Numbered from the stretch's first letter, positions 19,375-34,219 are shown. The stretch is DNA of 34,274 nt from an uncultured Syntrophorhabdus sp. (GCA_964599175.1 CAZREE010000005.1:1-34274), one strand, 5' to 3'. A program made the numbers and translations. Notes: generated by a model from the sequence alone, not told the origin.

Positions 19375-20043
19375 TTAATTCTTGATTTGAATTGAGTTCA
19401 CCATCTCCATAAAGCTTTTCTCGAATATCTGAAAAACCTTTTTCTCATTTCCCGAAAAAACATCCTTCTCCCAGTCTTTTCCCTCTTTCGAGACCTTCAC
19501 CCCAAAGGAGTTTACATCTTTTGAATACCGGACCAAAACACCATGCTCTCCAAGATAGATGAACTGGAATTGTCCCTGTAGAGCCCAGTGGCTTGGAATG
19601 GCGACTCCTTTTTTGACAATAGGCTGGAGGGATTTGGCATCGGGATTCCATGCCATCAACTGGATCAGATACTCTATCTCTAAATCACCCTTTTTGACCT
19701 TACCCTTTGAATACATTCTCTTCTCGGAGTAAGGTTTAAGTGTTGGGGCGGTCATGGGCAATGCCTGTGGATTCGTCTTATCCGCGATCTGGACGATAAA
19801 CAACTCTTCCGCCTTTTTCTTCCTATCTTTTATAAAAAAATAGACCCTCGTCAGCGAACTCTCAGCCGGGTTGTCATGGGAGAAAGAATGAATGAGCTTT
19901 AAATCTGAAGGAGTCGTTGAGGTAAACGGCGGTTTTTGAGAGGTTAATTTTCCCCCCTGAATGTCTAAATCCTTTGGAGCTGTAAATCCAAAACGTATTA
20001 ATATAAAAAAAAGAAGGACTGATAATATGACAACCTTTTTCAT
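19375..20043 (-). CDS. secreted hypothetical protein
   Basis: 222 aa with signal peptide MKKVVILSVLLFFILIRFGFTA. GAGGAA upstream. Lies 95 nt downstream of dctM-3 on the same strand. No family recognised. Confidence 0.55.
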   Translation of the reverse strand: MKKVVILSVLLFFILIRFGFTAPKDLDIQGGKLTSQKPPFTSTTPSDLKLIHSFSHDNPAESSLTRVYFFIKDRKKKAEELFIVQIADKTNPQALPMTAPTLKPYSEKRMYSKGKVKKGDLEIEYLIQLMAWNPDAKSLQPIVKKGVAIPSHWALQGQFQFIYLGEHGVLVRYSKDVNSFGVKVSKEGKDWEKDVFSGNEKKVFQIFEKSFMEMVNSIQIKN

Positions 20044-20138: not shown

Positions 20139-21446
20139 TCACTTCATCAGGCTGGGCAAAAAGGTTACAATTTCAGGAAAGGCCGTCAGGACGATTGCCA
20201 AGATGATCTTCGCTACCCAGAAGGGAATGGATCCCTTGAAGATGGTTCCCAGCGAGACATCCTTGGCGACTCCCGCTGTCACATAGACGCAGATTCCAAC
20301 CGGAGGGGTGAGCGTTCCGATGCTGATCATAATGATCAACACGACGCCGAACCATACTCCATCAAATCCTAAACTGATGATGAGGGGGTAAATCACGGGA
20401 ACGGTCAAGGCCAGGATCGCCAGCCCCTCTACAAAACAGCCGAGAATAATATAAAAGAGATAGATCCCCACGAGGACAACATAGGGAGAGACCTCCAGCC
20501 CGGCTACGAATGCAGAAAGCGCCATTGGGATCTTGCTGACTGTGATGAACCGCCCAAAAATACCCGCTCCGATCAGGATGAGAAACAGCATGCCTGTGAC
20601 GCTGGCGGCTTCTTTAAGGGCATTTCCAAATCCCTCTCGGGTCAGATGTCGGGTTGCCAGAGAATAGATTAATGCGCCGAAAGCCCCAATCGCCGCCGCT
20701 TCTGTGGGGGTAAAAACGCCCAAATAGATTCCGCCCATAGCCAAAAGGAACAAACCGGCAATCGGGTAAAGCCTTGCGGAAAATTTTAATTTATCTGTAA
20801 AGGCCATCTTCTCTCTGGGCATGAGAGGGGCCAGGCTGGGGTTAATCTTGACCCAGAAATAAATGGTTCCAATGAACAGCAAAGCGAGGAGGATCCCCGG
20901 AAGGATGCCGCCGATCAGGAGTTTGCCGATGGACTCATAGGTCAGAATCCCATAAAGGACGAGGACCGTGCTCGGCGGGATCAGAATATCCACGCCGCCC
21001 CCGGCAGCGATACAGCCTGTGCTCAGGATGTCCTTATATTTATACCGTCTCATCTCAGGTAAGGCTACCGCAGTGAAAGTAGCGACGGTCGCTATAATCG
21101 ATCCGGAGAGGGCGCCGAAGACGCCGCAGGCGCCGATCGTCGCCATCCCCAAGCCGCCCTTCACCCTCCCCAGCCAGGCATCGAGGGCTTTATAGATCTC
21201 ACGGCCCAACCCTGCATGGAGCAAAAAAAGTCCCATCAGGACAAAAAGCGGAATGACGCTCAAGGCATGAACGCTCGCATGCGCAAAGGCGTCCATGCCC
21301 AGTTTGGCCAGCATCGCCTTTGGGCTTGAGAGATAAGCAAAGCCCAGAAGGCCGACGAAAAGCATGGACAGACCGATTGGCATCCTGAATGCCAGGATCA
21401 CGAAAAAAAGAGCGATTCCCACGATGCCGACCGTCTCGGGACTCAT
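20139..21446 (-). CDS. dctM: TRAP transporter large permease (TRAP-3)
   Basis: Start re-set to the ATG at 21446, which has an ATGA overlap with the dctQ stop. 435-aa DctM. Confidence 0.9.
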   Translation of the reverse strand: MSPETVGIVGIALFFVILAFRMPIGLSMLFVGLLGFAYLSSPKAMLAKLGMDAFAHASVHALSVIPLFVLMGLFLLHAGLGREIYKALDAWLGRVKGGLGMATIGACGVFGALSGSIIATVATFTAVALPEMRRYKYKDILSTGCIAAGGGVDILIPPSTVLVLYGILTYESIGKLLIGGILPGILLALLFIGTIYFWVKINPSLAPLMPREKMAFTDKLKFSARLYPIAGLFLLAMGGIYLGVFTPTEAAAIGAFGALIYSLATRHLTREGFGNALKEAASVTGMLFLILIGAGIFGRFITVSKIPMALSAFVAGLEVSPYVVLVGIYLFYIILGCFVEGLAILALTVPVIYPLIISLGFDGVWFGVVLIIMISIGTLTPPVGICVYVTAGVAKDVSLGTIFKGSIPFWVAKIILAIVLTAFPEIVTFLPSLMK

Positions 21447-21949
21447 TTTTTCCTCGCTTTCTCCAGGGAAACAAGAAAATCTACCAATAAAACCATACAA
21501 TAAAGCAAACAGCCGAAAGCCGCCGCAATGAGAAAAGGATAAAGAGGTAAATTGAGAACCCCGGTGACATGCTTTCCGATCCACGTGCGCTTGGCATGGG
21601 CCAGTAACTGCCAGGTCAGCACCGCCCCTAACCCTATGCTGGTCAAATAAACGATGCTATCCGTTATGGCTTGGGCCCTCGGTGAGAACTTGGCCACCAA
21701 AGCTTCCATAGCGATATGACCTTTCTGAATCTGTGTGTACCCCACCGAGAAAAAGACGATGAGCGCAAGCATAAACTCGGTCAGTTCATAGGAGCCTGTG
21801 ATGGGCGCGTCAAAGAACTTGCGTCCGGTGACATCCACGACGGTTAAAAACATCATCCCCACGAGAATGCCTAACCCGATTTTATGCACTATTCTGATGA
21901 CCGGATAGACCGTCTTCTCTACGAAATGGGCAGCTTTCATGAATGGCAT
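21443..21949 (-). CDS. dctQ: TRAP transporter small permease (TRAP-3)
   Basis: 168 aa, 4 TM helices, AAGGAG Shine-Dalgarno sequence. Confidence 0.85.
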   Translation of the reverse strand: MPFMKAAHFVEKTVYPVIRIVHKIGLGILVGMMFLTVVDVTGRKFFDAPITGSYELTEFMLALIVFFSVGYTQIQKGHIAMEALVAKFSPRAQAITDSIVYLTSIGLGAVLTWQLLAHAKRTWIGKHVTGVLNLPLYPFLIAAAFGCLLYCMVLLVDFLVSLEKARKK

Positions 21950-21983
21950 ACTGACTCCTTATCCCATTTGATTAGGGGTCTTT

Positions 21984-22034
21984 TTCCCCTCCTCCTCCGG
22001 TGCGAATCTGAGTGAATGAGGAAAAGGAGGGGAA
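21984..22034 (-). other. intercistronic stem-loop after dctP-3
   Basis: Perfect 10-bp arms TTCCCCTCCT (21984-21993) and AGGAGGGGAA (22025-22034) with a 31-nt loop. No U-run follows. TRAP-2 has an analogous hairpin at 13615-13637 (CCCCCA / TGGGGG). Confidence 0.5.
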
Positions 22035-22043
22035 ATGGGTGTG

Positions 22044-23099
22044 TTATTTCGGTCCATATTCCTTGCTGAGTTTGATCATTTCATCGAAGAATTTTTTCCC
22101 TGGAAGCCCCTTCCCCTCCATTTTTGTGATCCATGCTTTATACAGGGGGTCGGCAGCTACTCTCCACTTCTCCATTTCTGCCGGAGGCAGTTCATAGACC
22201 TGAATGCCGGCTTTTTTATGCGTGTCAACCGACTTTAACGCAAGGTCGTCATAGATCACAGCGCCTTTAATCGCCATCTTTTTCCCCATCATGTCCTCAA
22301 GTATTTTTTTGTCTTTTGGGGAAAGCTTTTCAAAGGTTTCCTTGTTCATTACAGACACCATGATTGGAACATAGGCGTTCATAATGGTTGCATGGGAAGT
22401 CACTTCATAGAGGCGGAAATGGAGGCTGGCTGACCAGGGCGTAAAAACGCCATCGATGACCCCCCTTTTGAGCATCTCATACTGCTCGCCAACCGGTGAG
22501 GTAATGGGTGAAGCCCCGAAGGCCGTAGCCAGATCCTTTGTCGCCGGACCGTGGACTCTTATTTTCATCCCCTTAAGGTCTGCCATGGTGCGAACGGGTT
22601 TCTTCGTAAACAACTGGCCCGGATCTCCTGCCCAGATCCAGCACATCTTCGTCTCCCCATACTCTTTTCTAAATTCCGGAAACCTATCCCAGAGACCGTA
22701 GAGGGTGTCGGTAATGTGTTTGGCAGAACCGAAGAGAAACGGAAGCTCAGGCCCCTCTGTGAGTGGAAATTTCCCGGGAGAGTATGCAGGCAGGGTATAC
22801 ACAAAATCAGCGATCGCTGTCACCGCAGAGTCGTAGAGGTCGCCAGGTTTGGCTAAGGTTGCTCCGGGGAAGATGGTGATCTTGACTCTTCCCTCGGTTG
22901 CCTTCTCTACCTCTTTGACCCACGGATCGATCACCTCGGCATGCATGGCATGCGACGTGGGCACGAAATGACCCCACTTCAGCTCAACGGGCTTCACCGC
23001 CTGAGCCGATGCAATTGGAATGACCGACGAACCGATCAACCCGGTCACTAAAAGTAAAACCACAGAAAAAACAATGATAGAAGACGCTCTCTTTTCCAT
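22044..23099 (-). CDS. dctP: TRAP transporter substrate-binding protein (TRAP-3), DctP family
   Basis: Start re-set to the ATG at 23099, with AAGGAGG upstream. The ORF-track start is a TTG lying 5' of and partly within that Shine-Dalgarno sequence. Signal peptide ending IASAQA. DctP block MADLKGMKIRV. Confidence 0.9.
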   Translation of the reverse strand: MEKRASSIIVFSVVLLLVTGLIGSSVIPIASAQAVKPVELKWGHFVPTSHAMHAEVIDPWVKEVEKATEGRVKITIFPGATLAKPGDLYDSAVTAIADFVYTLPAYSPGKFPLTEGPELPFLFGSAKHITDTLYGLWDRFPEFRKEYGETKMCWIWAGDPGQLFTKKPVRTMADLKGMKIRVHGPATKDLATAFGASPITSPVGEQYEMLKRGVIDGVFTPWSASLHFRLYEVTSHATIMNAYVPIMVSVMNKETFEKLSPKDKKILEDMMGKKMAIKGAVIYDDLALKSVDTHKKAGIQVYELPPAEMEKWRVAADPLYKAWITKMEGKGLPGKKFFDEMIKLSKEYGPK

Positions 23100-23194
23100 T
23101 TTTCCCTCCTTATTCAAAAACCCGATGAATTCCCTTCCGATCTTTTACTCCCTTTATTCTCCGTTGAAATACGTTGTGGTCTTACCACCTCCTC

Positions 23195-24094
23195 TCAGGA
23201 TTGATCCCCTCTTTGGATCGACTGGTCTGCCTTCCACTTTAATTTTCTCCATTCCTCATCCACTTCTCTCTGGATCTTTTTTATCTCCTTATCGGTAATG
23301 TGCTGAAATCTTCCCTGCTTCAATAGATATCGCTCAACAGGCAGTCGCCGCGGCTCATGATTGATTGTAAACCGGACTCCATCCTCCACCTCGTAGAGAG
23401 GAAAAATATTCGTTTCAACGGCAAGAATCGATATCTCCGGAGAAAGATCAGTGGCCATCCGCCATCCCGTCGGGCAGGGACTCAGTAGGTGAATAAACTT
23501 CGTTCCCCGGATCCCCTTGGCTTTGTTAATCTTCTGTTGAAGATCCTGCGGGAAACCGATGGTGGCTGTGGCTGAGTAAGGATTATAATGGGCCGCCATG
23601 ATCTCCATGATATTCTTCTTCCGCCTGGTATTTCCTTTCGGGGTTGTCCCGGTCCAGGCAAAACATGGGGTCGATGAGCTCACCTGAATCCCTGTGTTCA
23701 TATAGCCTTCGTTATCCAGACAAACATAGATGATATCATCGTTGTTCTTCGTCACCCCTGAAAGAGCTGCCAGTCCGATGTCATAAGTCCCTCCATCTCC
23801 TGCAAAGGCCAGCGCCTGGATATCATCCCTGCCCTGAATCTTCAGGGCATTGGCAATTCCAGCCGCAGTGGGTGCGGCGATTTCGAAAGCGGAATGGAAC
23901 GTTGGAACGCCATAGGCTGTAATCGGATAGAGCCCGCCGATCGAGCCTTCGCAAGAGGGAACGATGACGGCAATCGTTTTCGGCCCCATGGCTTGAAGCA
24001 CAAGCCTCATGCCCACCGCAAGGCCGCAACCTGCACAGGCCGCATGACCCGGCCGAAGGTAATTGGGTTGATGTTCAGGTTGTATCATTTGCAA
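23195..24094 (-). CDS. 2-oxoacid:ferredoxin oxidoreductase beta (TPP-binding) subunit, POR/VOR type
   Basis: PGHAACAGCG N-terminal Cys motif, GDGG TPP motif (AFAGDGGTYDIG) and CLDNEGYMNTG. Confidence 0.85.
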   Translation of the reverse strand: MQMIQPEHQPNYLRPGHAACAGCGLAVGMRLVLQAMGPKTIAVIVPSCEGSIGGLYPITAYGVPTFHSAFEIAAPTAAGIANALKIQGRDDIQALAFAGDGGTYDIGLAALSGVTKNNDDIIYVCLDNEGYMNTGIQVSSSTPCFAWTGTTPKGNTRRKKNIMEIMAAHYNPYSATATIGFPQDLQQKINKAKGIRGTKFIHLLSPCPTGWRMATDLSPEISILAVETNIFPLYEVEDGVRFTINHEPRRLPVERYLLKQGRFQHITDKEIKKIQREVDEEWRKLKWKADQSIQRGDQS

Positions 24095-24154
24095 TTCCTC
24101 TGTGTTGGGTAAATTAAACCGCTCCGTCTTCAGCCTTTAAATTTAAAACTCTTT

Positions 24155-24182
24155 AATCCGCAATCCGAAATCTGCAATCGGC
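24155..24182. repeat. four tandem heptamers AATCCGC AATCCGA AATCTGC AATCGGC
   Basis: Read directly. They occupy the alpha-beta intercistronic spacer, and the last unit overlaps the alpha-subunit stop codon by 1 nt. Confidence 0.8.
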
Positions 24183-25333
24183 TACTCTTCCATGATCCAG
24201 ATCGACTCATCGACCGGTCCTGTTCTACCAATTGCATCGAGAGCGATCTTTCGGATCACTTCAGGGGTGACATCCGTTCCCCCGACCCCTGCAACAAAAC
24301 TGTAGATAAAGGGATGGTCAGAAGAATGAACCAGGGCCGACCTCAACTCCTGGCAGAAAATGCCTCCTCCTCCGATAGAATTATTCCGATCGATCACAGC
24401 GATCTTTTTCTTTCCTCTCAGCGCCTGTTGAATCGCCTCTCTTGGAAACGGCCTGAAATAGCGTATCTTTAATAATCCGACCCGATGCCCCTCTTCGCGC
24501 AAAGCCCGGATGGCCAACCTGGCTGTGGAGGTGATCGACCCTGCCGTCACAATGGCAACCTCCGCATCCTCCATCATGACAGGTTCAATAATGCCATAAC
24601 CTCGTCCAAAAACTGTCCTGAACTCATGATCCACCTGAGCCGCAACCTCTTTGACGGAGTCCATAGAAGTCTGGGCCATATGCCGATACTTCCTGTATAA
24701 TTCCGATGGAACCACAGGCACGAGAAACCCCGGTTTGTCCATATCGAACCGATGGGGAAGGTCCAACGGCGGTAGGAATTGATCTACCTTCTCCTGATCC
24801 GGAAGCTCCACAGGCTCCATAAAATGAGAAACAAAAAACGCCTCCAGGGAGATCATGACAGGCAAAAAGACCTTCTCCGCAATCCTATAAGCTTGAATCA
24901 CGCTGTCGAGCGCCTCCTGACCATTTTCACAATAAAGCTGGATCCATCCCGTATCCCTTTGCGAAAGGCTGTCAAGCTGGTCTGCCCAGAATCCCCATGG
25001 GGCTGAGATGATGCGATTCACATTGGCCATGACAACAGGCACACGACAACCCGCGGCAAAATGGAGCATCTCATGCATGAGGGCAAGTCCCTGTGAAGAG
25101 GTGGCTGTAAACGTCCTGACGCCTGTTAAAGAAGCCGCTATGCATGAAGCCATAGCCGAATGCTCGGATTCGGTGCGCATCATAATTCCCTTGATCGCTT
25201 CCGAAGCCTCCCATTCCGAGAGCTTTTCATAAATCGGCGTCTGAGGGGTGATGGGATAAGCAGCAATCAGCGGCGTTCTGCAGAGTTTCACGGCATGGGC
25301 CACTGCATGATTTCCTGTCATGAACTCTCTCAT
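24182..25333 (-). CDS. 2-oxoacid:ferredoxin oxidoreductase alpha subunit
   Basis: Start re-set to the ATG at 25333, which has an ATGA overlap with the upstream gene. MTGNHAVAHAVKLCRTPLIAAYPITPQT and TESEHSAMASCIAASLTGVRTFTATSSQGL are typical PorA/VorA blocks. Confidence 0.85.
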   Translation of the reverse strand: MREFMTGNHAVAHAVKLCRTPLIAAYPITPQTPIYEKLSEWEASEAIKGIMMRTESEHSAMASCIAASLTGVRTFTATSSQGLALMHEMLHFAAGCRVPVVMANVNRIISAPWGFWADQLDSLSQRDTGWIQLYCENGQEALDSVIQAYRIAEKVFLPVMISLEAFFVSHFMEPVELPDQEKVDQFLPPLDLPHRFDMDKPGFLVPVVPSELYRKYRHMAQTSMDSVKEVAAQVDHEFRTVFGRGYGIIEPVMMEDAEVAIVTAGSITSTARLAIRALREEGHRVGLLKIRYFRPFPREAIQQALRGKKKIAVIDRNNSIGGGGIFCQELRSALVHSSDHPFIYSFVAGVGGTDVTPEVIRKIALDAIGRTGPVDESIWIMEE

Positions 25334-27069
25334 GAAATTAGCCTCATTTCGATCACATGTCTCGGGCAGGCCCTGGAACAGGTGCCGCACCCCTTGCAGT
25401 GGTCAAGATCGACCCTTCTGATTCGGTTTGCAGAATCGAACGAAACGATCCCTTCCGGACAGAAAAAGTAACAGTTGTAGCAATAATTGCAGGTTCCACA
25501 GGAGAAACATCTTAGGGCTGAAAGCCTTGCTCCTTCCGATGAAAATCCGGTATGGACTTCTGAAAACCCCTTCAGGGCCTTGCCTGTGTCGATTCTCCCG
25601 GGTCTCACTCTTTCAGACGGTTTGAAAAAGAGCGTGTTGATCTGATCGTAAACAACAACACCCCTGGGCTCCTCCCAGAACCCTCTCTCTCTGCCCTTGA
25701 AATAGGCTTCCATCGAAAGGGCTCCTTTTGACCCGACCCTGATCTTTGAAAAGGCCTCTTCCGGATCTATCCCCCTCAAAGAGAGGTCTATGGAAATGGC
25801 AGCCTTCTTTCCGGAAGCGATGGCGGTCACCACACTTCTCTGTTGGTCTACAGCGTCGCCTCCTGCAAAAATTTTTGTAATACCGCTCCAGGGTGAAGAT
25901 GTTGTTTTAAGGAATCCGTTTTCGATCAGGTCTTGTGGAACCCATGAAAGATCCACACCTTCACCGACCGCTGTAATCAGGCGGTCTGCCTCCATCATCA
26001 CAAAGTCGCCTTTGATCGGGATCGGACGGGGTCGTTCTTCCTTGCTCGATTTTCTCAGTCTCATGCGTTGAAACTTGACACGGATCTTCCTGTTTTTGAG
26101 GAGCTTGATCTCTATCGGTTGAACCAGGAACTCAAATCGCACCCCTTCTTGCTCGGCTTCTTCAACCTCATCCGAAATGGCAGGCATCTCCTTTTTCGTC
26201 CGACGGTAGGCAACTGTTACGGATGAACCCAGACGACGCGCGGAGCGCGCAACATCCATAGCCGTATTTCCCCCTCCGATCACAATCACTTCTTTTCCAG
26301 GCTTGATTCTTTCTCCCGAATTGATTCGGTTCAAGAAGTCTGTTCCTTTCCAGACCTTTGCCAGATTCTCACCTTTGACTCCAAGCGGGATACTCCGGCC
26401 TGCCCCGGGAGACAAAAAGATGCCGTCGAATTGACTCAAGGCTTCCAGTGCCAGATCTTTTCCAACCTTCACGCCTGTTTTCATCTCGATGCCAAGTCCT
26501 AATATCCTTCCGATCTCCTTTTTCAGCGCTCGCTTCGGAAGCCTGTACTCAGGGATTCCCCATCGAAGGACACCCCCGGGTTCTTTCCTGGCTTCAAAAA
26601 CCGTCACCTTGTGCCCGAGCAGAGCGAGGAAATAGGCGCAGGAGAGACCGGCAGGCCCTGCTCCGACAATCGCAATCTTTTTTGGATCGTCATTGGGCGC
26701 TGGATTCAGTTTCGGAGAAAGGTCAACCGTAGCATCAAACACATGCCTCTCTAAGGCATTGACCGATACAGTCTCATCATACTGGTTTCGGTTACATCTG
26801 CTCTCGCAGGGATGAAAACAGACCCTGCCGCAGACTCCGGGCAAAGGGTTCTCCTTTAAAATCGTATGAAGCGCTTCCTGGGAATGTCCCTCTCCTGCAA
26901 GATAGATAAACGTGGCTATTGGATTTCCTGCCGGGCAGGCCTCTGCGCAAGGGGCTGTCATAAAAGCGGACTCAGGTTTTTGAAAACCCCACTTGCCGGT
27001 CTCAATCAACTCGGTGCTTTCATAGGAGACGGGGATGACTAATTCAACAGACTCAGCGTAAACTTTCAT
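25330..27069 (-). CDS. GltD/NfnB-type NAD(P)H flavoprotein fused to an OFOR delta-type 2x[4Fe-4S] ferredoxin domain
   Basis: N-terminal Cys clusters (CAEACPAGNPI, CGRVCFHPCESRC). Two dinucleotide folds (IAIVGAGPAGLSCA, VIVIGGGNTAMD). The C-terminus has CNYCYNCYFFCP and CKGCGTCSRACP. I prefer the ATG at 27069 over the TTG at 27108. Confidence 0.8.
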   Translation of the reverse strand: MKVYAESVELVIPVSYESTELIETGKWGFQKPESAFMTAPCAEACPAGNPIATFIYLAGEGHSQEALHTILKENPLPGVCGRVCFHPCESRCNRNQYDETVSVNALERHVFDATVDLSPKLNPAPNDDPKKIAIVGAGPAGLSCAYFLALLGHKVTVFEARKEPGGVLRWGIPEYRLPKRALKKEIGRILGLGIEMKTGVKVGKDLALEALSQFDGIFLSPGAGRSIPLGVKGENLAKVWKGTDFLNRINSGERIKPGKEVIVIGGGNTAMDVARSARRLGSSVTVAYRRTKKEMPAISDEVEEAEQEGVRFEFLVQPIEIKLLKNRKIRVKFQRMRLRKSSKEERPRPIPIKGDFVMMEADRLITAVGEGVDLSWVPQDLIENGFLKTTSSPWSGITKIFAGGDAVDQQRSVVTAIASGKKAAISIDLSLRGIDPEEAFSKIRVGSKGALSMEAYFKGRERGFWEEPRGVVVYDQINTLFFKPSERVRPGRIDTGKALKGFSEVHTGFSSEGARLSALRCFSCGTCNYCYNCYFFCPEGIVSFDSANRIRRVDLDHCKGCGTCSRACPRHVIEMRLIS

Positions 27070-27604
27070 AGATTCGAACCTTATCGTAGGCTTCTCTGAG
27101 CGCCTCAATATTGGATTCTGTTCTAATGGAAATCATTTGCCGGACTACTTCGATCAGGGTTTCCTTGCGCACCAGATGGGTCAGGGAAGCATAGGCGCCG
27201 AGAAGCGTGGTGTTCAATACCCCTCCTATCCCAGCTTTTCTCGCAATCGCTCCCACATCGATCAGACCGATCTTGAATTGCCTCAACCCCCTGAAGGAAT
27301 CAATCTCTTTGTTCGTATTGATCAGAAGGGTCCCTCCTGGCTTCAGTTCCTGGTGCACCTCTGATTCTTCCATCAGGCTGAGGTCGAAGATGACCAATTG
27401 ATCCGGACGTTTGATCTGACATTTTAATAGAATGGGCTCCTTATCAACCCGCAAAAAACCAAAAACCGGGGCTCCTCGACGCTCTGAGCCGAAAAGGGAG
27501 AAGCACTGGGGATATTTTCCTTCCGTAAAAAAACCTCTTCCTAAAATTTCGGAGGCGATCACCACTCCCTGCCCCCCTCGACCCTTGAATTTAATCTCGA
27601 TCAT
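27053..27604 (-). CDS. 2-oxoacid:ferredoxin oxidoreductase gamma subunit
   Basis: 183 aa. IKFKGRGGQGVVIASEILG is the typical gamma-subunit N-terminus. Confidence 0.85.
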   Translation of the reverse strand: MIEIKFKGRGGQGVVIASEILGRGFFTEGKYPQCFSLFGSERRGAPVFGFLRVDKEPILLKCQIKRPDQLVIFDLSLMEESEVHQELKPGGTLLINTNKEIDSFRGLRQFKIGLIDVGAIARKAGIGGVLNTTLLGAYASLTHLVRKETLIEVVRQMISIRTESNIEALREAYDKVRIYESLR

Positions 27605-27620: not shown

Positions 27621-28292
27621 TTAATTTTGTTCCTCTTTAAAGGCGTATCTTAAGACATCTTTCTTCGACTGCTCTAAATGGCGCTGGATGGCTTGCTTGA
27701 CTTCTAAGAGATTAAATCCTTCAATCGCCAGGAGGATTCCCTTATGTCCCTCAATAGCTCTTGTCACATTTTCGGCTAAATAAATACTTTGAATTCTATA
27801 CCTCAGCATGTGTCGTCTCAGGGACTGCGCCAATTCGAGAAGACGTTGACTGCCGCTATATCTGGCGATGATTTCGTGAAACTGGGCGTCCAATTCAACA
27901 AAGGACTTCACATCTCCGCTCGAAACCTTCTCTTCTGCAAGCGCAATGTTCTCCCTTAACTCTTCAATGAGCCGATCACGTGCCTTCTCAATAGCCCATT
28001 GAACAGCCAGTCCTTCAACAACTCTCCTTATCTCGCATATCTCTTCTACTTCCTGCACACTGGTAGGTCGAACAACATATCCCACCCTCGGGATGGATTC
28101 AATCAGTCCCTCCAGTTCCAGATTATGAAGCGCCTCTCTCACGGGCGTGCGAGATGTTCCGATCTCCCTTGCAATTTTTGCTTCGATCAGATGCTCATGA
28201 GGAGGAATGTCTCCGCTCAAAAGTTTCTCGCGAAGATAGTCATACACCTTTCTTCTTATCGTTTTTGGATTCTTAATGACCAGCCTTCGCAT
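27621..28292 (-). CDS. GntR family (FadR/FCD-type) transcriptional regulator
   Basis: wHTH segment EAKIAREIGTSRTPVREALHNLELEGLI followed by a helical FCD-like C-terminal domain. I prefer the ATG at 28292; the transcript looks leaderless (see promoter feature). Confidence 0.75.
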   Translation of the reverse strand: MRRLVIKNPKTIRRKVYDYLREKLLSGDIPPHEHLIEAKIAREIGTSRTPVREALHNLELEGLIESIPRVGYVVRPTSVQEVEEICEIRRVVEGLAVQWAIEKARDRLIEELRENIALAEEKVSSGDVKSFVELDAQFHEIIARYSGSQRLLELAQSLRRHMLRYRIQSIYLAENVTRAIEGHKGILLAIEGFNLLEVKQAIQRHLEQSKKDVLRYAFKEEQN

Positions 28293-28299
28293 GAGGTGT

Positions 28300-28328
28300 A
28301 CTGTACCCCAGTCTAATTTTTTTGTCAA
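28300..28328 (-). promoter_or_regulatory. candidate sigma-70 promoter giving a leaderless gntR transcript
   Basis: Minus strand reads TTGACA (28328-28323), 17-nt spacer, TACAGT (28305-28300), then only 7 nt (ACACCTC) before the ATG at 28292. No Shine-Dalgarno sequence. The near-palindrome GTACTGTAC overlaps the -10 box. Confidence 0.45.
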
Positions 28329-28342
28329 GCCCCCTTTCCACA

Positions 28343-28371
28343 TTGACAACCATTTAATATTACTATATCAT
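28343..28371 (+). promoter_or_regulatory. candidate sigma-70 promoter of the larA-like gene
   Basis: TTGACA (28343-28348), 17-nt spacer, TATCAT (28366-28371). AAGGAG Shine-Dalgarno sequence 8 nt before the ATG at 28419. Confidence 0.5.
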
Positions 28372-28418: not shown

Positions 28419-29702
28419 ATGGATCCATATCTCAACTACGACGGAGAGAGAAAGACCTTTTCCATTCCAGAGGGATGGAATGTGATCTCAAGCGAGGACA
28501 AACCTCCCATCCCCGGAGTAAAAGATCCCGTTCAGGAAATTCGGCAAGCGCTGGATCATCCCATAGGATCTTCCGGAATTGAAGATCTGGCTCGACCCGG
28601 AATGGAGGTCGTGCTTTTATTCGATGACCTCCAGCGACCAACTCCTGCTCATCTTGCCCTGCCTGAAATGATGAACCGCCTCAACAGGGCCGGCATTCCG
28701 GACGGACGGATCACAGGCATTTGCGCCCTTGGAACTCATCCCATTCCCTCACTCGAACACCTTGAGATAAAGGTGGGCAAGGAAGTATTTTCCCGGCTAT
28801 CCGGTCGTCTCTTTCCTCACAACCCCCATGCCTCTGACAATGTGATCATCGGAAAGACTCATCGGGGAACATTGGTCGAGGTGAACCGTCATGTCGCCTT
28901 GGCGGATCTGATCATTGGCGTGGGCGAATGCATGCCCCACCCTATTGCCGGATATGGCGGAGGATATAAAATCATCATGCCCGGGGTCTGTTCGTATCGC
29001 TCTGTTGCGGATCATCACTTTCACTGGATGCGGCACCGCAACAGCAGGGTCAATCTGCTCGACGGAAACCATTTTCTTGAAGACATCCTGGATGCCGGCC
29101 GGTTATCGAGAATGGCTTTTAAACTCGACCTTATCATCAATGAAAAAAAGGAGGTCATCCGTGCTTTTGCAGGAGATCCCATCGCCGAGCACAGAGAGGC
29201 TTCCAATTGCGCCGCCTCACTCTATACCATCCCCCTCTCGAAACTGGCTGATGTGACGATCGTCTCTGCGTATCCTTTGGAGGTAGGAGTTCAATCAACC
29301 AAAGCCCTGACCATGGCGGGATTCTGCACTCGATCCGGTGGCGCCATCATCTGGGTTGCCCCTCAGAAGCAGACAGGTTCCATCATGCCTCTCATTAAAG
29401 AGATGGCAAGTCCAGAGAGCGCCGGCGATTTTCACCGGCGCCTCATCATAGGAGATATCCCAGAACATCTCCGCTCATTCGGGATCTCCTACATCATGCA
29501 GGTCGTCTACTTCAAGGAGTTAGCCGAGAAATTCACCGTGGTTCATGTAACGGAGGGGCTTTCAGAAGAGCAGGTGAGGATGATGAAATTCGCATACGCT
29601 CCCACCCTACAGGATGCCATCGATCAGGTGTACAAGAAGATGGATCGGGCAGATGTCGCCATCTTTCCCTCCGGCGGCAACATCATCCCCCAGGTCCGCT
29701 AA
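28419..29702 (+). CDS. larA: LarA-family nickel-pincer-nucleotide-dependent 2-hydroxyacid racemase/epimerase (DUF2088)
   Basis: 427 aa with DLQR, GTH, PHPIAGYGGGYK (His-x9-Lys) and ADHH 15-16 residues after the Lys. These match the positions I recall as D72/R75/H108/H174/K184/H200 in L. plantarum LarA. Confidence 0.8.
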   Translation: MDPYLNYDGERKTFSIPEGWNVISSEDKPPIPGVKDPVQEIRQALDHPIGSSGIEDLARPGMEVVLLFDDLQRPTPAHLALPEMMNRLNRAGIPDGRITGICALGTHPIPSLEHLEIKVGKEVFSRLSGRLFPHNPHASDNVIIGKTHRGTLVEVNRHVALADLIIGVGECMPHPIAGYGGGYKIIMPGVCSYRSVADHHFHWMRHRNSRVNLLDGNHFLEDILDAGRLSRMAFKLDLIINEKKEVIRAFAGDPIAEHREASNCAASLYTIPLSKLADVTIVSAYPLEVGVQSTKALTMAGFCTRSGGAIIWVAPQKQTGSIMPLIKEMASPESAGDFHRRLIIGDIPEHLRSFGISYIMQVVYFKELAEKFTVVHVTEGLSEEQVRMMKFAYAPTLQDAIDQVYKKMDRADVAIFPSGGNIIPQVR

Positions 29703-32120: not shown

Positions 32121-32495
32121 CTATAGGTCTTTCTCCTGAAATTTCTTTTTAGCTCTCTGCCTTCTTTTCGATTTCTGTTTCCTGATTTTTTCTATTTCCT
32201 TTTCATCATCCGTGATCTGACCTGATAATCGCACAATGCGGTTGACCAGTTCTCTCCTCGCAAAAAATCGATTGAGCGCCTGGCTCCTTTCGGTCATCCA
32301 CTTCACTTCAATCCCCGTGGGAAGATGCTTGAGATAAACGCAGGTGGAAGTCTTGTTCACCTTCTGCCCTCCCCTCCCCGACGAGCGAATGAATTTCTCT
32401 TCAATATCCCTCTCATGAATGTTCAGGGATTCCATCTTCTCCTTGAGGTCTCTGTTTTTCTCCTCGCTCACAGGGAACATAAAAGAGAGGCTCAT
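32121..32495 (-). CDS. GGQ-motif class-I release-factor-domain protein (ArfB-like peptidyl-tRNA hydrolase candidate)
   Basis: 124 aa with SSGRGGQKVNKTSTCV and a Lys/Arg-rich C-terminal tail. ATGA overlap with the upstream gene. Confidence 0.65.
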   Translation of the reverse strand: MSLSFMFPVSEEKNRDLKEKMESLNIHERDIEEKFIRSSGRGGQKVNKTSTCVYLKHLPTGIEVKWMTERSQALNRFFARRELVNRIVRLSGQITDDEKEIEKIRKQKSKRRQRAKKKFQEKDL

Positions 32496-34156
32496 TTGAA
32501 CTCCGGATCATCACACCAGCAGAGCATGCCGCCGTCGATGTTTCTCACATTCTCAAAACCCTGATGTTGGAGTTTGAGGCAGGCTTTATAAGAGCGAAGG
32601 CCTGACTCACAGTGAACAGCGATCTCTTTCTTTTTATCAAGTTCTCCCATGCGTTTTTCTAACTTTCCCTGAGGAATCCAGGTGGACCCGGGGATCCGTT
32701 TTCTGGCAACCTCCTCTTCCTCTCTGACATCCAGAACCTGAAAAGAACCTTTTGAAGTCGAGAGCCTCTCCTTCACCTCCGCTAACTGAATCCCCCTCAC
32801 CTTTCCTTCCAGTTTGTTCGTCAGGACATTGGCCGCCACAATGACCGGTGAGAGAGCCGGACTGTAAGGGGGCGCATAAGCCAGATCCACGTTGGCTAAT
32901 TCCTGAGCAGTCATCTTTCCATGAAGGGCCATGGCTAAGATGTCGATTAATTTATCCGAAGGCCCCTCTCCAATCGCCTGACCTCCAAGAACCCTGCCGG
33001 TCTTTTGATCTGCAATCACCTTCAGGGTGGACTCTTTCCCTCCGGGGTAATAGTGGGCTCGATCATATCCTCTGACAATGGCCTGAATCGGCTGGAATCC
33101 CTCTTTCTCAGCCTCCCTCATGCCCAATCCGGTCTTTGCCACATTGAAATCGAAGACCTTGAAGATGGCTGTCCCCATTACTCCCGGAAAGACTGCATTG
33201 CCGCCACAGAGATTTACACCCGCCACCCTGCCCTGTTTATTCGCTGTGGAGCCAAGAGGAACCCATACCTTCTTCCCTGTAATCAGATGGGTCGTCTCAG
33301 CGCAATCTCCTGCCGCATAAATTCCCTCGACACTGGTCTCCATTCTCTCGTTTACCCAGACCGCTCCGGTCTCACCGATCTTCAGCCCGGCCTTTCTCGC
33401 CAGATCAATCCGGGGTCGCACGCCAAGACTCATTAAAACCGCATGCGCTTCAATCTCATGACCTGCTGTCCGGACCTGTGTGACCTTGCCTTCCTTTCCG
33501 ACCAGGGCCTGAATGCCCTCGGAGGTAAAAATTTGAATCCCTTTTGTCTCCAGGTAACGACGGAGCAGGCTTGCAAAATCTTCATCAAAAAGCGTCAGAA
33601 TCTGGGGCGCTAATTCGACAATCGTCACTTTCTTATTTGAACGGACAAGGGATTCGGCCATCTCCAGCCCGATATAGCCCCCGCCGGCGATCACAACATC
33701 CGTGATTTTTTCTGACCGTATCGCCTGGATAATTGCATCTGCGTCGAAGATCGAACGAAGATAAAAGACATTTCTCAGATCGATGCCTTCGATTCTTGGC
33801 CGAATCGGCTCGGCTCCCGTGGCAAAGACCAATCGGTCAAATTGATCCTCAAACTGTTCTCCCGATTCAAGATTCTTCCCTGAGACGGTCTTTCCCCTAA
33901 CATCAACATCCTCGATTCGCCGACCTTTCAGAACCTTTATCCCGTCCAGAGCAAACTTGCCGGGTGTCCGTGAGATCAACTGATCTCTCTCCTTGATCAC
34001 ACCACCGATAAAGTAGGGAAGTCCGCAACCCGCATAAGAGATCTCTTCTTCCCCCTGATAGATGACGATCTCCATCTGAGGATCGCATCTCTTTGCTTTG
34101 GCAGCCGCCTTGGGCCCCGCCGCCACTCCTCCGATCACCAAAAGCCTCTTTCCCAT
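32492..34156 (-). CDS. CoA-disulfide reductase / NADH oxidase family flavoprotein with a C-terminal rhodanese domain
   Basis: Start re-set to the ATG at 34156, with AAGGGGGG upstream. Motifs: VIGGVAAG FAD fold, redox Cys in SYAGCGLPY, second fold VIAGGGYIGLE, and the rhodanese loop VHCESGLRS. Confidence 0.8.
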   Translation of the reverse strand: MGKRLLVIGGVAAGPKAAAKAKRCDPQMEIVIYQGEEEISYAGCGLPYFIGGVIKERDQLISRTPGKFALDGIKVLKGRRIEDVDVRGKTVSGKNLESGEQFEDQFDRLVFATGAEPIRPRIEGIDLRNVFYLRSIFDADAIIQAIRSEKITDVVIAGGGYIGLEMAESLVRSNKKVTIVELAPQILTLFDEDFASLLRRYLETKGIQIFTSEGIQALVGKEGKVTQVRTAGHEIEAHAVLMSLGVRPRIDLARKAGLKIGETGAVWVNERMETSVEGIYAAGDCAETTHLITGKKVWVPLGSTANKQGRVAGVNLCGGNAVFPGVMGTAIFKVFDFNVAKTGLGMREAEKEGFQPIQAIVRGYDRAHYYPGGKESTLKVIADQKTGRVLGGQAIGEGPSDKLIDILAMALHGKMTAQELANVDLAYAPPYSPALSPVIVAANVLTNKLEGKVRGIQLAEVKERLSTSKGSFQVLDVREEEEVARKRIPGSTWIPQGKLEKRMGELDKKKEIAVHCESGLRSYKACLKLQHQGFENVRNIDGGMLCWCDDPEFK

Positions 34157-34219
34157 TTTCCCCCCTTGAATTGAATTATATTCAAGACCTAAATTGAGCG
34201 ATTTTTTCACCCTTCACAA

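What the first reader, a model, noticed from the sequence alone, without database searches (positions are those of the whole stretch)
23195..27604. OFOR whose delta subunit is fused to a GltD/NfnB-type NAD(P)H flavoprotein
The gene order is gamma, then [GltD-like + 2x4Fe-4S], alpha and beta, with 17-nt and ATGA overlaps. This places a 579-aa protein exactly where the ~8-kDa delta ferredoxin normally sits.

Its C-terminal 70 residues are a canonical delta subunit (CNYCYNCYFFCP, CKGCGTCSRACP). The preceding ~500 residues carry the GltD-type Fe-S motifs and two Rossmann folds.

This would wire 2-oxoacid oxidation, or reductive carboxylation, directly to NAD(P)(H) without free ferredoxin. It is conceptually like the extra flavoprotein subunit of phenylglyoxylate:NAD+ oxidoreductase (PadEFGHI) and the NADP-linked 2-oxoglutarate oxidoreductase of Azoarcus, as I recall them. 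Here, however, it is a covalent fusion in a POR/VOR-type enzyme.
Basis: partly seen in the sequence, partly recalled or inferred. Interest (0 to 1): 0.6.

Follow-up and report, generated by a model that had tools for sequence, protein, structure and literature searches.

The report
NADPH flavoprotein built into oxoacid oxidoreductase
In this anaerobe's 2-oxoacid oxidoreductase operon, the small ferredoxin (delta) subunit has an NADPH-binding iron-sulfur flavoprotein inserted into it, so electrons probably go straight to NADP+ instead of to free ferredoxin; the design is real and very common in uncultured bacteria, but I found no biochemical study of it.

Summary
Four genes lie on the minus strand: gamma, a 579-aa fusion, alpha and beta, with the stated 17-nt and ATGA overlaps. 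No separate delta gene is present.

The fusion is not a frameshift artefact. Thousands of full-length homologues exist, and the gene order is kept in every related locus long enough to show it. Other lineages fuse gamma on as well.

The architecture is more intricate than "GltD plus C-terminal delta". The delta subunit is split: its N-terminal arm is residues 3-37 and its two-cluster core is residues 527-579. An NfnB-like FAD/NADP(H) module sits between them. That module's own first Cys-x2-Cys segment has moved to residues 500-526, as in the NfnABC/Stn large subunits.

Most likely function: a 2-oxoacid:NADP+ oxidoreductase with an internal five-cluster wire. This is inferred, not assayed.

The Pad flavoprotein (PadH) belongs to a different family, so that analogy is functional only. 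DsrL shares the domain order, and the DsrL authors explicitly set aside the POR/VOR-linked copies.

The substrate is unknown. The close clade is tightly linked to a LarA-type hydroxyacid racemase, a GntR regulator and a TRAP transporter.

This scan has reported the same design on other genomes many times.

The parts
27053..27604 (-). OFOR gamma subunit (183 aa)
   Evidence: PF01558 at E 1.8e-31. TIGR02175 PorC_KorC scores 161 bits against a cut-off of 81. It lies upstream of the fusion in every related locus that reaches that far.
25330..27069 (-). Delta* gene: a 579-aa delta subunit with an inserted NfnB-like FAD/NADP(H) iron-sulfur flavoprotein (includes the stop codon)
   Evidence: NF009410/PRK12771 matches end to end at 524.9 bits against a cut-off of 516. 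The AlphaFold2 model has pLDDT 92 and pTM 0.91. Thousands of full-length homologues exist.
26959..27063 (-). Residues 3-37: N-terminal arm of the delta subunit (..STELIETGKWGFQKP..; family consensus TGxWRxxxP)
   Evidence: hhalign of the family's N-terminus against 120 stand-alone deltas gives probability 96.3 and E 1.6e-9. Reversed and 30 column-shuffled controls score 15.7 or less, against 44.0 for the native order. The same arm is present in the solved PFOR delta 9bt4_G.
25765..26958 (-). Residues 38-435: NfnB/GltD-like body. Contains Fe-S ligands C41, C45, C84, C88, C92 and E107, the FAD site GAGPAG (136-141), and the NADP(H) site GGGNTA (265-270) with Y288-R289-R290.
   Evidence: Pfam Fer4_20 (profile positions 29-108) and Pyr_redox_2 match. 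Alignments to NfnB 4ylf_B and 5jca_L give E about 1e-80. VIA-align Z is 32 to NfnB and 40-41 to NfnABC/Stn. The ligand residues are conserved in A1 and A2.
25573..25764 (-). Residues 436-499: structured wrap-back linker
   Evidence: pLDDT is mostly above 87, with helices at 436-443, 453-462 and 495-498. The region superposes on the equivalent stretch of 9bov_A and 8oh5_C (model range 33-557).
25492..25572 (-). Residues 500-526: relocated N-terminal segment of the NfnB/GltD Fe-S domain (FSEV...RC521FSC524G). It probably supplies two ligands of the distal cluster.
   Evidence: It matches PF14691 profile positions 3-29, which complements the N-terminal match to positions 29-108. Of 49 divergent members, 41 match individually, best E 4e-5. 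C521 and C524 are invariant in 65 sequences.
25333..25491 (-). Residues 527-579: delta ferredoxin core, 2x[4Fe-4S] (C527/530/533/537 and C558/561/564/568)
   Evidence: hhalign against stand-alone deltas gives probability 99.8 and E 8.6e-28. The best NCBIfam hits for the C-terminal 80 aa are PorD_Arch (48 bits) and PorD_KorD (47 bits), against about 27 bits for generic ferredoxins.
24182..25333 (-). OFOR alpha subunit (383 aa)
   Evidence: POR_N at E 7e-63 and PFOR_II at E 4e-29. The best NCBIfam hit is PorA_Arch at 434 bits, below its cut-off of 550; VorA scores 363 bits.
23195..24088 (-). OFOR beta subunit (297 aa): TPP site and [4Fe-4S]
   Evidence: TPP_enzyme_C matches. PRK11864 scores 357 bits and PorB 331 bits, both against a cut-off of 405. 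C18, C21, C46, C205 and the GDG motif are invariant in A4.
27621..28349 (-). GntR/FCD regulator at the head of the operon (context)
   Evidence: PF00392 and PF07729 match. It is conserved upstream of gamma in most related loci.
28419..29702 (+). Divergently transcribed LarA-type (nickel-pincer) 2-hydroxyacid racemase homologue (context)
   Evidence: Lar_N and LarA_C match. The best NCBIfam hit is malate racemase LarAH6 at 265 bits, against a cut-off of 500. It is 71-87% identical and in the same position in 18 related loci.
20139..23117 (-). TRAP transporter DctP/DctQ/DctM downstream of beta (context)
   Evidence: PF03480, PF04290 and PF06808 match. A DctM gene follows beta in most related loci.

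Best explanation
The operon encodes a POR/VOR-type four-subunit 2-oxoacid oxidoreductase (alpha, beta, gamma, delta*). The ferredoxin subunit, delta*, carries an inserted NfnB-like flavoprotein.

The polypeptide starts as the delta arm (residues 3-37). It then runs through the NfnB-like body (38-435), which holds FAD and an NADP(H) site. A structured linker (436-499) brings it back. Next comes the NfnB segment with Cys521-x2-Cys524 (500-526), which most likely completes the distal NfnB cluster together with C41 and C92. It ends as the two-cluster delta core (527-579).

Proposed electron path: 2-oxoacid plus CoA at TPP (alpha/beta), then the beta [4Fe-4S], then the two delta clusters, then the NfnB distal and proximal [4Fe-4S] clusters, then FAD, then NADP+. 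The enzyme would therefore be a 2-oxoacid:NADP+ oxidoreductase (CoA-acylating) that needs no soluble ferredoxin.

What is shown: the gene structure, the domain homologies, the ligand conservation, the conserved synteny and the gamma fusions. What is inferred: complex formation, the electron path, NADP(H) specificity (from the YRR motif), the oxidative direction, and the ligation of the distal cluster by C521/C524. The substrate is unassigned. The conserved LarA, GntR and TRAP neighbours point to a 2-oxoacid derived from an imported 2-hydroxy or 2-oxo acid.
For: - Domain content and gene order.
- NF009410 matches end to end, above its cut-off.
- Full-length homologues are numerous: 7888 scored hits and 22581 representatives, among them dozens of 50%-identity clusters of 545-610 aa.
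- The order gamma, delta*, alpha, beta is kept in every one of the 24 genome loci long enough to show it. It is also kept in 40%-identical members.
- Triple fusions of gamma, NfnB-like module and delta are followed by alpha and beta.
- The delta arm (E 1.6e-9) and the delta core (E 8.6e-28) match stand-alone deltas by profile-profile comparison, with clean shuffle controls.
- The C-terminal 80 aa rank the PorD families first.
- The Fer4_20 domain is split: profile positions 29-108 at residues 38-114 and positions 3-29 at residues 500-526. Of 49 members, 41 show this.
- Ten invariant C-terminal Cys, plus C45, C84, C88, C92 and E107 invariant and C41 nearly invariant (90% or more), fit four clusters in delta*.
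- The AlphaFold2 model is compact: pTM 0.91 with a structured linker.
- The closest solved folds are the NfnABC/Stn large subunits, including the linker (Z 40-41.5, model range 33-557).
- In Caldicellulosiruptor NfnABC that module's FAD takes the hydride from NADPH and feeds an Fe-S wire one electron at a time (PMC11829005).
- Y288-R289-R290 is invariant in the close clade. The YRR motif is described as indicating NADP(H) preference (PMC7596348).
- A GltD/NfnB-like component of the NADP+-dependent 2-oxoglutarate oxidoreductase of Azoarcus evansii is placed in the same orthologous group by PMC10134865.
- Established thermochemistry (my own knowledge): 2-oxoacid/acyl-CoA+CO2 lies near -500 mV and NADP+/NADPH at -320 mV, so the oxidative direction is exergonic.
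Against: - No activity, cofactor or complex data exist for any member of this family in the literature I could search.
- C39 and C42 of NfnB have no Cys counterparts at the N-terminus. The distal cluster therefore depends on the inferred ligation by C521/C524.
- Alpha, beta and the delta core score below every curated POR/VOR equivalog cut-off, so the substrate is open.
- NfnB-type flavins bifurcate in NfnAB, so a more complex electron flow is not excluded.
- A syntroph-like anaerobe would give up low-potential electrons by reducing NADP+ directly. That is physiologically costly.
Confidence: 0.68

Rival explanations
1. Delta* is a free-standing, DsrL-like NAD(P)H:acceptor oxidoreductase. It docks only transiently on an alpha-beta-gamma OFOR, or on other partners, and serves as a dedicated NADPH:ferredoxin-type shuttle. 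It would not be an integral subunit.
For: The domain order is the same as in DsrL: an N-terminal Fe-S domain, an FAD/NAD(P) domain, a linker of about 100 aa and a C-terminal 2x[4Fe-4S] domain. DsrL is described as the physiological partner of DsrAB (PMC7596348). This genome also holds several paralogues with other contexts.
Against: - Delta* keeps both the arm and the core of the integral delta subunit.
- No other delta gene is in the operon.
- Translational coupling on both sides (17-nt and ATGA overlaps).
- Covalent fusion to the integral gamma subunit in other lineages.
Confidence: 0.12
2. The NfnB-type FAD bifurcates or confurcates electrons. The complex would then couple 2-oxoacid oxidation, or NADPH-driven reductive carboxylation, to a second acceptor or donor such as external ferredoxin. 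It would not simply reduce NADP+.
For: The module is homologous to NfnB (E about 1e-80), whose FAD is the bifurcating site in NfnAB. Its closest structural relatives sit in bifurcating complexes. Surface-exposed clusters could still reach ferredoxin.
Against: - No NfnA-like or Bfu-like partner gene is in the operon or in the conserved neighbourhood.
- In NfnABC the homologous FAD is not the bifurcation site (PMC11829005).
- Both electrons from a 2-oxoacid are already at low potential, so reducing NADP+ needs no bifurcation.
Confidence: 0.08
3. The enzyme works mainly in reverse. It would be an NADPH-dependent 2-oxoacid synthase (reductive carboxylation of an acyl-CoA) for biosynthesis.
For: OFORs are reversible in principle. 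An NADPH input module would supply reductant.
Against: - NADPH lies about 180 mV too positive (established thermochemistry, my own knowledge).
- The operon has a catabolic look: a GntR/FCD regulator, TRAP uptake genes and a LarA-type racemase. These are conserved in about 20 loci.
Confidence: 0.05
4. Artefact: two ordinary genes (a gltD-like gene and porD) joined by a sequencing or assembly frameshift.
For: None found.
Against: - A single open frame.
- Conservation over the full length at 35-88% identity in independent assemblies.
- The interleaved arm, body, relocated segment and core cannot arise from joining two ordinary genes.
Confidence: 0.01

Closest known systems
Four-subunit pyruvate / 2-ketoisovalerate:ferredoxin oxidoreductases (PorGDAB/VorGDAB; solved example PDB 9bt4, which includes a delta chain)
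   Same: The gene order gamma, delta, alpha, beta is the same. The alpha, beta and gamma domain sets match. The delta arm (TGxWRxxxP) and the 2x[4Fe-4S] core are both present.
   Different: Delta is interrupted by an NfnB-like FAD/NADP(H) module of about 490 residues. Alpha, beta and the delta core fall below all curated POR/VOR equivalog cut-offs. The predicted acceptor is NADP+ rather than ferredoxin.
DsrL, the NAD(P)H:acceptor oxidoreductase partner of DsrAB (Loffler et al. 2020, PMC7596348)
   Same: The domain order is the same: an N-terminal NfnB-like Fe-S domain, an FAD/NAD(P) domain, a linker of about 100 aa and a C-terminal 2x[4Fe-4S] ferredoxin domain. The YRR motif of the NADP-preferring type is present.
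   Different: The gene is encoded inside an OFOR operon, not with dsrAB. The DsrL authors explicitly excluded such POR/VOR-linked genes. This protein carries the OFOR delta arm and a PorD-like core. I did not make a direct sequence comparison with DsrL, because no DsrL sequence was at hand.
NfnB of NfnAB (4ylf_B, 5jca_L), and the NfnB-like domain of the NfnABC/StnABC large subunits (9bov_A, 9n5u_A, 8oh5_C)
   Same: The fold and cofactor sites match (E about 1e-80 to 1e-102; Z 32 to 41.5). The wrap-back linker and the post-linker RCxSCG segment are shared with the NfnABC/Stn type.
   Different: No NfnA or Bfu partner is present. The Fe-S domain that follows is an OFOR delta core rather than a formate-dehydrogenase-like domain. 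The two N-terminal Cys of canonical NfnB are absent at the N-terminus.
NADP+-dependent 2-oxoglutarate oxidoreductase (KGOR) of Azoarcus evansii (Ebenau-Jehle, Boll and Fuchs 2003; cited in PMC10134865)
   Same: It is a biochemically shown 2-oxoacid:NADP+ oxidoreductase. PMC10134865 places one of its components in the same GltD/NfnB-like orthologous group.
   Different: The alpha and beta here are POR/VOR-type, not Kor-type: the OorA-type model scores 104 bits against a cut-off of 579. The primary paper was not held, so I could not compare the KGOR subunit architecture.
Phenylglyoxylate:NAD+ oxidoreductase PadEFGHI
   Same: It is an OFOR with an extra FAD subunit that passes electrons to a pyridine nucleotide. 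This is a functional analogy only (my own knowledge of Hirsch et al. 1998).
   Different: PadH (NF045765) does not match the fusion. Instead it hits the unrelated CoA-disulfide-reductase-like ORF at 32492-34210. PadF is a plain 78-position delta. The Pad alpha, beta and gamma models score far below their cut-offs: 273 of 700, 225 of 700 and 113 of 300.

Membership tests
POR/VOR-type four-subunit OFOR | Alpha with POR_N and PFOR_II, beta with a TPP-binding domain and cluster cysteines, and gamma PF01558 | tested here: met
   Pfam; invariant C18, C21, C46, C205 and GDG in beta.
POR/VOR-type four-subunit OFOR | Delta subunit with an N-terminal arm and two CxxCxxCxxxCP motifs, encoded between gamma and alpha | tested here: met
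   Arm E 1.6e-9 and core E 8.6e-28 against 120 stand-alone deltas. The position is confirmed. The two parts are separated by about 490 inserted residues.
POR or VOR equivalogs (NCBIfam PorA_Arch, PRK08366, PRK11865, PorD_Arch) | Score above the curated equivalog cut-off | tested here: not met
   Alpha scores 434 of 550 and 363 of 646. Beta scores 331 of 405, and 357 of 405 for the PRK11864 subfamily model. The delta core scores 48 of 120. More distant delta*-linked alpha and beta proteins show the same pattern.
NF009410 / PRK12771 'NAD(P)-binding protein' subfamily | End-to-end match above 516 bits | tested here: met
   524.9 bits over profile positions 25-563. Note that ORFs of 1400-1500 aa covering only positions 41-543 also pass the cut-off, so the model is not specific to this architecture.
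NfnB/GltD-type iron-sulfur flavoprotein | FAD and NAD(P)H Rossmann sites plus proximal-cluster ligands (three Cys and one Glu) | tested here: met
   G136-x-G138-x-x-G141, G265-G-G-N-T-A270, and C45/C84/C88/E107 aligned to NfnB C51/C90/C96/E117 (numbering from PMC7596348).
NfnB/GltD-type iron-sulfur flavoprotein | Four Cys ligands of the distal cluster in the N-terminal CxxCx4Cx3CP motif | tested here: inconclusive
   The counterparts of C39 and C42 are not Cys at the N-terminus. The homologous RC521xxC524G segment lies after the linker. That it ligates the cluster is inferred, not shown.
NfnAB transhydrogenase | An NfnA partner ([2Fe-2S] and FAD) encoded alongside | tested here: not met
   No such gene is in the operon or the conserved neighbourhood.
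DsrL | DsrL domain order: N-terminal Fe-S, FAD/NAD(P), linker, C-terminal ferredoxin | tested here: met
   the definition is in PMC7596348.
DsrL | Comes from a dsrAB organism or context and is not linked to POR/VOR subunit genes (criteria 1 and 3 of Loffler et al. 2020) | tested here: not met
   The gene lies between OFOR gamma and alpha. The criterion is quoted. I did not search the genome for dsrAB.
Phenylglyoxylate dehydrogenase PadEFGHI | A PadH-type FAD subunit and Pad-specific alpha, beta and gamma | tested here: not met
   The PadH model does not hit the fusion. PadG scores 273 of 700, PadI 225 of 700 and PadE 113 of 300.
2-oxoacid:NAD(P)+ oxidoreductase (functional class) | 2-oxoacid- and CoA-dependent reduction of NAD(P)+ without ferredoxin | not testable with these tools
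   This needs an enzyme assay.

The most novel reading that the evidence does not exclude
The inserted NfnB-type flavin is a genuine bifurcating or confurcating centre. This widespread OFOR class would then split or merge electron pairs between NADP(H), the TPP site and an external ferredoxin. One possible consequence is NADPH-assisted reductive carboxylation. If so, this would be a previously unrecognised flavin-based bifurcating 2-oxoacid oxidoreductase, found in a large share of Thermodesulfobacteriota.
Probability: 0.07. Interest if true: 0.85.

Novelty: new variant of a known kind. Interest (0 to 1): 0.5.

Why it matters
Metabolic models of anaerobes usually assume that every OFOR yields reduced ferredoxin. 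If this class reduces NADP+ directly, then electron and energy budgets change wherever it operates. That affects ferredoxin-dependent H2 or formate production, Rnf and Nfn fluxes, and NADPH supply.

The class is common. In a sample of 301 genomes from this phylum, 123 had a match above the family cut-off, often with two or three full-length copies per genome. It also occurs in other phyla.

The architecture is instructive as a piece of protein evolution. A permuted flavoprotein sits inside a ferredoxin subunit, so that five clusters form one continuous wire.

In this particular clade the conserved LarA, GntR and TRAP linkage defines an uncharacterised hydroxy/oxo-acid catabolic island. Its substrate could be found by ordinary assays.

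Tried and rejected
1. Complex prediction (alpha, beta, delta arm and delta* residues 500-579). The tool returned no verdict: score 0.67, against 0.56 for a control in which alpha was replaced. It is not used as evidence either way.

2. A plain HMM built from 120 stand-alone deltas did not score the N-terminal arm (about 0 bits). Arm-plus-core chimeras scored no better than chimeras with shuffled arms. That HMM holds too little information for a 16-residue motif. The profile-profile test with shuffle controls was decisive instead.

3. Residues 1-40 alone gave no NCBIfam hit.

4. Literature searches for a characterised delta-GltD/NfnB OFOR found no biochemical study (two malformed queries). A November 2026 PFOR review does not mention such fusions. 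The only mentions are the exclusion criterion in the DsrL paper and a clade label for KGOR in PMC10134865.

5. The primary Azoarcus KGOR paper is not held, so its subunit architecture could not be checked.

6. Pad homology of the flavoprotein is rejected.

7. Substrate assignment from NCBIfam is rejected: all scores are below their cut-offs and the POR and VOR models give mixed answers. The LarA type is also unassignable, with a best score of 265 against a cut-off of 500.

8. I did not compare directly with DsrL sequences and did not build a tree of NfnB-like modules. No named reference sequences were available.

Full report
**Observation.** The minus strand of 23195-27604 carries four tightly packed ORFs:
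- gamma, 27604..27053, 183 aa
- a 579-aa protein, 27069..25330
- alpha, 25333..24182, 383 aa
- beta, 24088..23195, 297 aa

The gamma and fusion genes overlap by 17 nt. The fusion and alpha genes share ATGA. Pfam gives PF01558 for gamma, POR_N plus PFOR_II for alpha and TPP_enzyme_C for beta. For the 579-aa protein it gives Fer4_20 (38-114), Pyr_redox_2 (131-420) and 4Fe-4S dicluster domains (526-576). No separate delta gene exists in the operon.

**Is the fusion real, and how common is it?** NCBIfam model NF009410 (PRK12771, "NAD(P)-binding protein") matches the protein end to end at 524.9 bits, above its cut-off of 516.
- A word-indexed search scored 7888 homologues. The best 120 are almost all 573-585 aa long, cover 98-100% of the query and are 63-88% identical. 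Several are named by JGI as glutamate-synthase-beta-like / OFOR delta.
- An exhaustive search of 50%-identity representatives found 22581 relatives. Among them are dozens of separate clusters of 545-610 aa that align over residues about 12-575 at 35-46% identity.
- In 24 genome loci (Syntrophaceae and Thermodesulfobacteriota MAGs, one Thermodesulfovibrionia, one Nitrospiraceae), the order gamma, fusion, alpha, beta is kept wherever the contig allows.
- A 40%-identical member sits in the same position.
- Proteins of 730-760 aa add the gamma domain (PF01558) in front of the same module and are followed by alpha and beta. Source names include Candidatus Hydrothermae and a MAG labelled Nitrosotenuis.
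- Among 301 sampled genomes of the phylum, 123 have a match above the family cut-off. Many have two or three full-length copies of about 580 aa, or gamma fusions of 720-750 aa. The cut-off is also passed by ORFs of 1400-1500 aa that match only the flavoprotein part.

A frameshift artefact is excluded.

**Anatomy.** The C-terminal 80 residues rank the OFOR delta families first: PorD_Arch 48 bits and PorD_KorD 47 bits, against about 27 bits for generic ferredoxins. Three further results change the simple "GltD plus delta" picture.

First, the N-terminus of the family (consensus ..IS..ST....TGxWRxxxP) is homologous to the N-terminal arm of stand-alone deltas. I collected 120 such deltas, starting from the classical OFOR on contig C55 of the same genome. 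Profile-profile comparison gave probability 96.3 and E 1.6e-9. The native score was 44.0, against 7.5 for the reversed alignment and at most 15.7 for 30 column shuffles. The core matched with E 8.6e-28. The same arm is present in the solved PFOR delta chain 9bt4_G.

Second, the NfnB-like Fe-S domain lacks the first two cysteines of the canonical motif. I aligned the protein to Thermotoga NfnB and used the ligand list in PMC7596348.
- The proximal cluster has C45, C84, C88 and E107. All four are invariant.
- The distal cluster has only C41 and C92 at the N-terminus. The positions equivalent to NfnB C39 and C42 are variable non-Cys residues across the family.

Third, the missing segment lies after the linker. 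Residues 500-526 (FSEV...RC521FSC524G) match Pfam Fer4_20 profile positions 3-29. That exactly complements the N-terminal match to positions 29-108. Of 49 divergent members, 41 give this hit individually, with a best E of 4e-5. C521 and C524 are invariant in 65 sequences. They directly precede the eight invariant Cys of the delta core.

The resulting layout is:
- delta arm, residues 3-37
- NfnB-like body, residues 38-435
- linker, residues 436-499
- relocated NfnB N-segment, residues 500-526
- delta core, residues 527-579

In other words, a permuted flavoprotein is inserted as a loop between the arm and the core of delta.

**Structure.** AlphaFold2 with a 65-sequence alignment gives pLDDT 92 and pTM 0.91. 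Only residues 1-20 are uncertain, and the linker is structured. The best structural matches are the large subunits of NfnABC and StnABC:
- 9bov_A: Z 41.5, rmsd 3.2 Angstrom, 478 residues aligned, model range 33-557
- 8oh5_C: Z 40.3
- 9n5u_A: Z 40.0

These stand above plain NfnB (Z 32) because they also cover the linker and the post-linker segment. By sequence, 9n5u_A aligns up to residue 533 and includes an RCMSCG motif. The wrap-back topology is therefore shared with solved relatives. For Caldicellulosiruptor NfnABC, the authors describe the FAD of this domain as the NADPH oxidation site. It relays single electrons into an Fe-S chain, and the bifurcation site lies elsewhere (PMC11829005).

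**Mechanism.** The most likely reading is an alpha-beta-gamma-delta* complex with one continuous electron path: TPP, the beta cluster, the two delta clusters, the NfnB distal and proximal clusters, FAD, then NADP+. Several points support this.
- NADP(H) is suggested by the invariant Y288-R289-R290. The YRR motif is described as indicating NADP(H) preference, and the whole site resembles that of NADPH-binding NfnB.
- The oxidative direction is favoured by standard potentials (about -500 mV against -320 mV; established knowledge).
- The catabolic context also favours the oxidative direction.
- Integral-subunit status is supported by the retained arm and core, the lack of any other delta gene, translational coupling, and the gamma fusions.

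All catalytic statements are inference. I rate this reading at about 0.68. The rivals are a transient DsrL-like partner (0.12), bifurcation or confurcation (0.08), a reductive synthase (0.05) and an artefact (0.01).

**Comparison with known systems.**
- Pad: the analogy is functional only. The PadH model (NF045765) does not hit the fusion. It hits the CoA-disulfide-reductase-like/rhodanese ORF at 32492-34210 instead. PadF is an ordinary 78-position delta. The Pad alpha, beta and gamma models score far below their cut-offs.
- DsrL: it has the same domain order. Loffler et al. [quoted passage not shown] The family has therefore been seen in print but set aside.
- KGOR: PMC10134865 places a component of the NADP+-dependent 2-oxoglutarate oxidoreductase of Azoarcus evansii in the same GltD/NfnB-like orthologous group. 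That is a biochemical precedent for this kind of coupling. The primary paper is not held, and the alpha and beta here are POR/VOR-type rather than Kor-type.
- I found no biochemical study of the POR/VOR-linked family. A November 2026 PFOR review does not mention it.

**Substrate and context.** Alpha scores best against PorA_Arch (434 of 550) and beta against the VOR-type PRK11864 (357 of 405). Distant delta*-linked enzymes show the same pattern. The group therefore looks like a coherent but unassigned POR/VOR-like subfamily.

In the close clade only, the operon is headed by a GntR/FCD regulator and followed by TRAP transporter genes. It is also divergent from a LarA-type racemase homologue, which is 71-87% identical and in the same position in 18 related loci. 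That LarA homologue is below every LarA-family cut-off; its best score is malate racemase LarAH6 at 265 of 500. No 2-hydroxyacid dehydrogenase is in the cluster. The same genome also encodes classical four-subunit OFORs with free 100-aa deltas.

**Earlier work in this scan.** Look-ups made after my own analysis showed that the scan has reported the same design on at least 29 other genomes. Those reports include the gamma fusions and the "split delta" reading, and their follow-ups reached the same conclusion. My tests agree with them independently. The KGOR lead came from those notes and was only partly verifiable.

**Verdict.** The feature is real, its anatomy is well defined, it is widespread, it is catalogued only generically, and I found no biochemical study of it. 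It is a new variant of the known class of pyridine-nucleotide-linked OFORs. Interest is moderate (0.5).

Noticed in passing
window 32492-34210 (-): A 572-aa ORF with Pyr_redox_2, Pyr_redox_dim and a C-terminal rhodanese domain, of the CoA-disulfide/persulfide-reductase type. It is the window's best match to the PadH flavoprotein model (160 bits against a cut-off of 475). This shows which flavoprotein family Pad actually uses.
   Followed up: partly
window 28419-29702 (+), and L001-L022: A LarA-type nickel-pincer racemase homologue, below all curated LarA-family cut-offs (best 265 of 500, malate racemase LarAH6). It is divergently transcribed from the OFOR operon and conserved in that position in 18 related MAG loci. 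No 2-hydroxyacid dehydrogenase is in the cluster, so one step between racemase and OFOR is missing.
   Followed up: partly
L029 6001-8238, L031 6001-8253; proteins P0280, P0285, P0297, P0319, P0355: Triple fusions of gamma, NfnB-like module and delta (730-760 aa), followed by alpha and beta, in other phyla. These give three-gene versions of the same enzyme.
   Followed up: yes
own genome G000: C66:6182-7687, C89:1080-2450, C33:9099-10118, C120:1204-2466: Four further NfnB/GltD-like paralogues in ORFs of 477-804 aa, with 379-455 bits to NF009410 (C33 in two pieces, 233 and 80 bits), all below the cut-off. Their partners were not examined. The genome also has six POR_N genes, including two classical OFORs with free deltas (C55, C22) and an IOR-like 719-aa gene (C62).
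   Followed up: no
The genome search, phylum sample: The NF009410 curated cut-off is also passed by ORFs of 1400-1500 aa that match only profile positions about 41-543 (the flavoprotein part). The model is therefore not specific to the OFOR-delta architecture and will give different enzymes the same name.
   Followed up: no
window 19375-20043 (-): A 222-aa ORF at the end of the operon with no Pfam or NCBIfam match. A 62%-identical copy lies downstream of beta in L007.
   Followed up: no
window 24089-24181: An unusually long 93-nt spacer between alpha and beta in an otherwise overlapping operon. Related loci also have spacers of about 30-330 nt here (coordinates).
   Followed up: no
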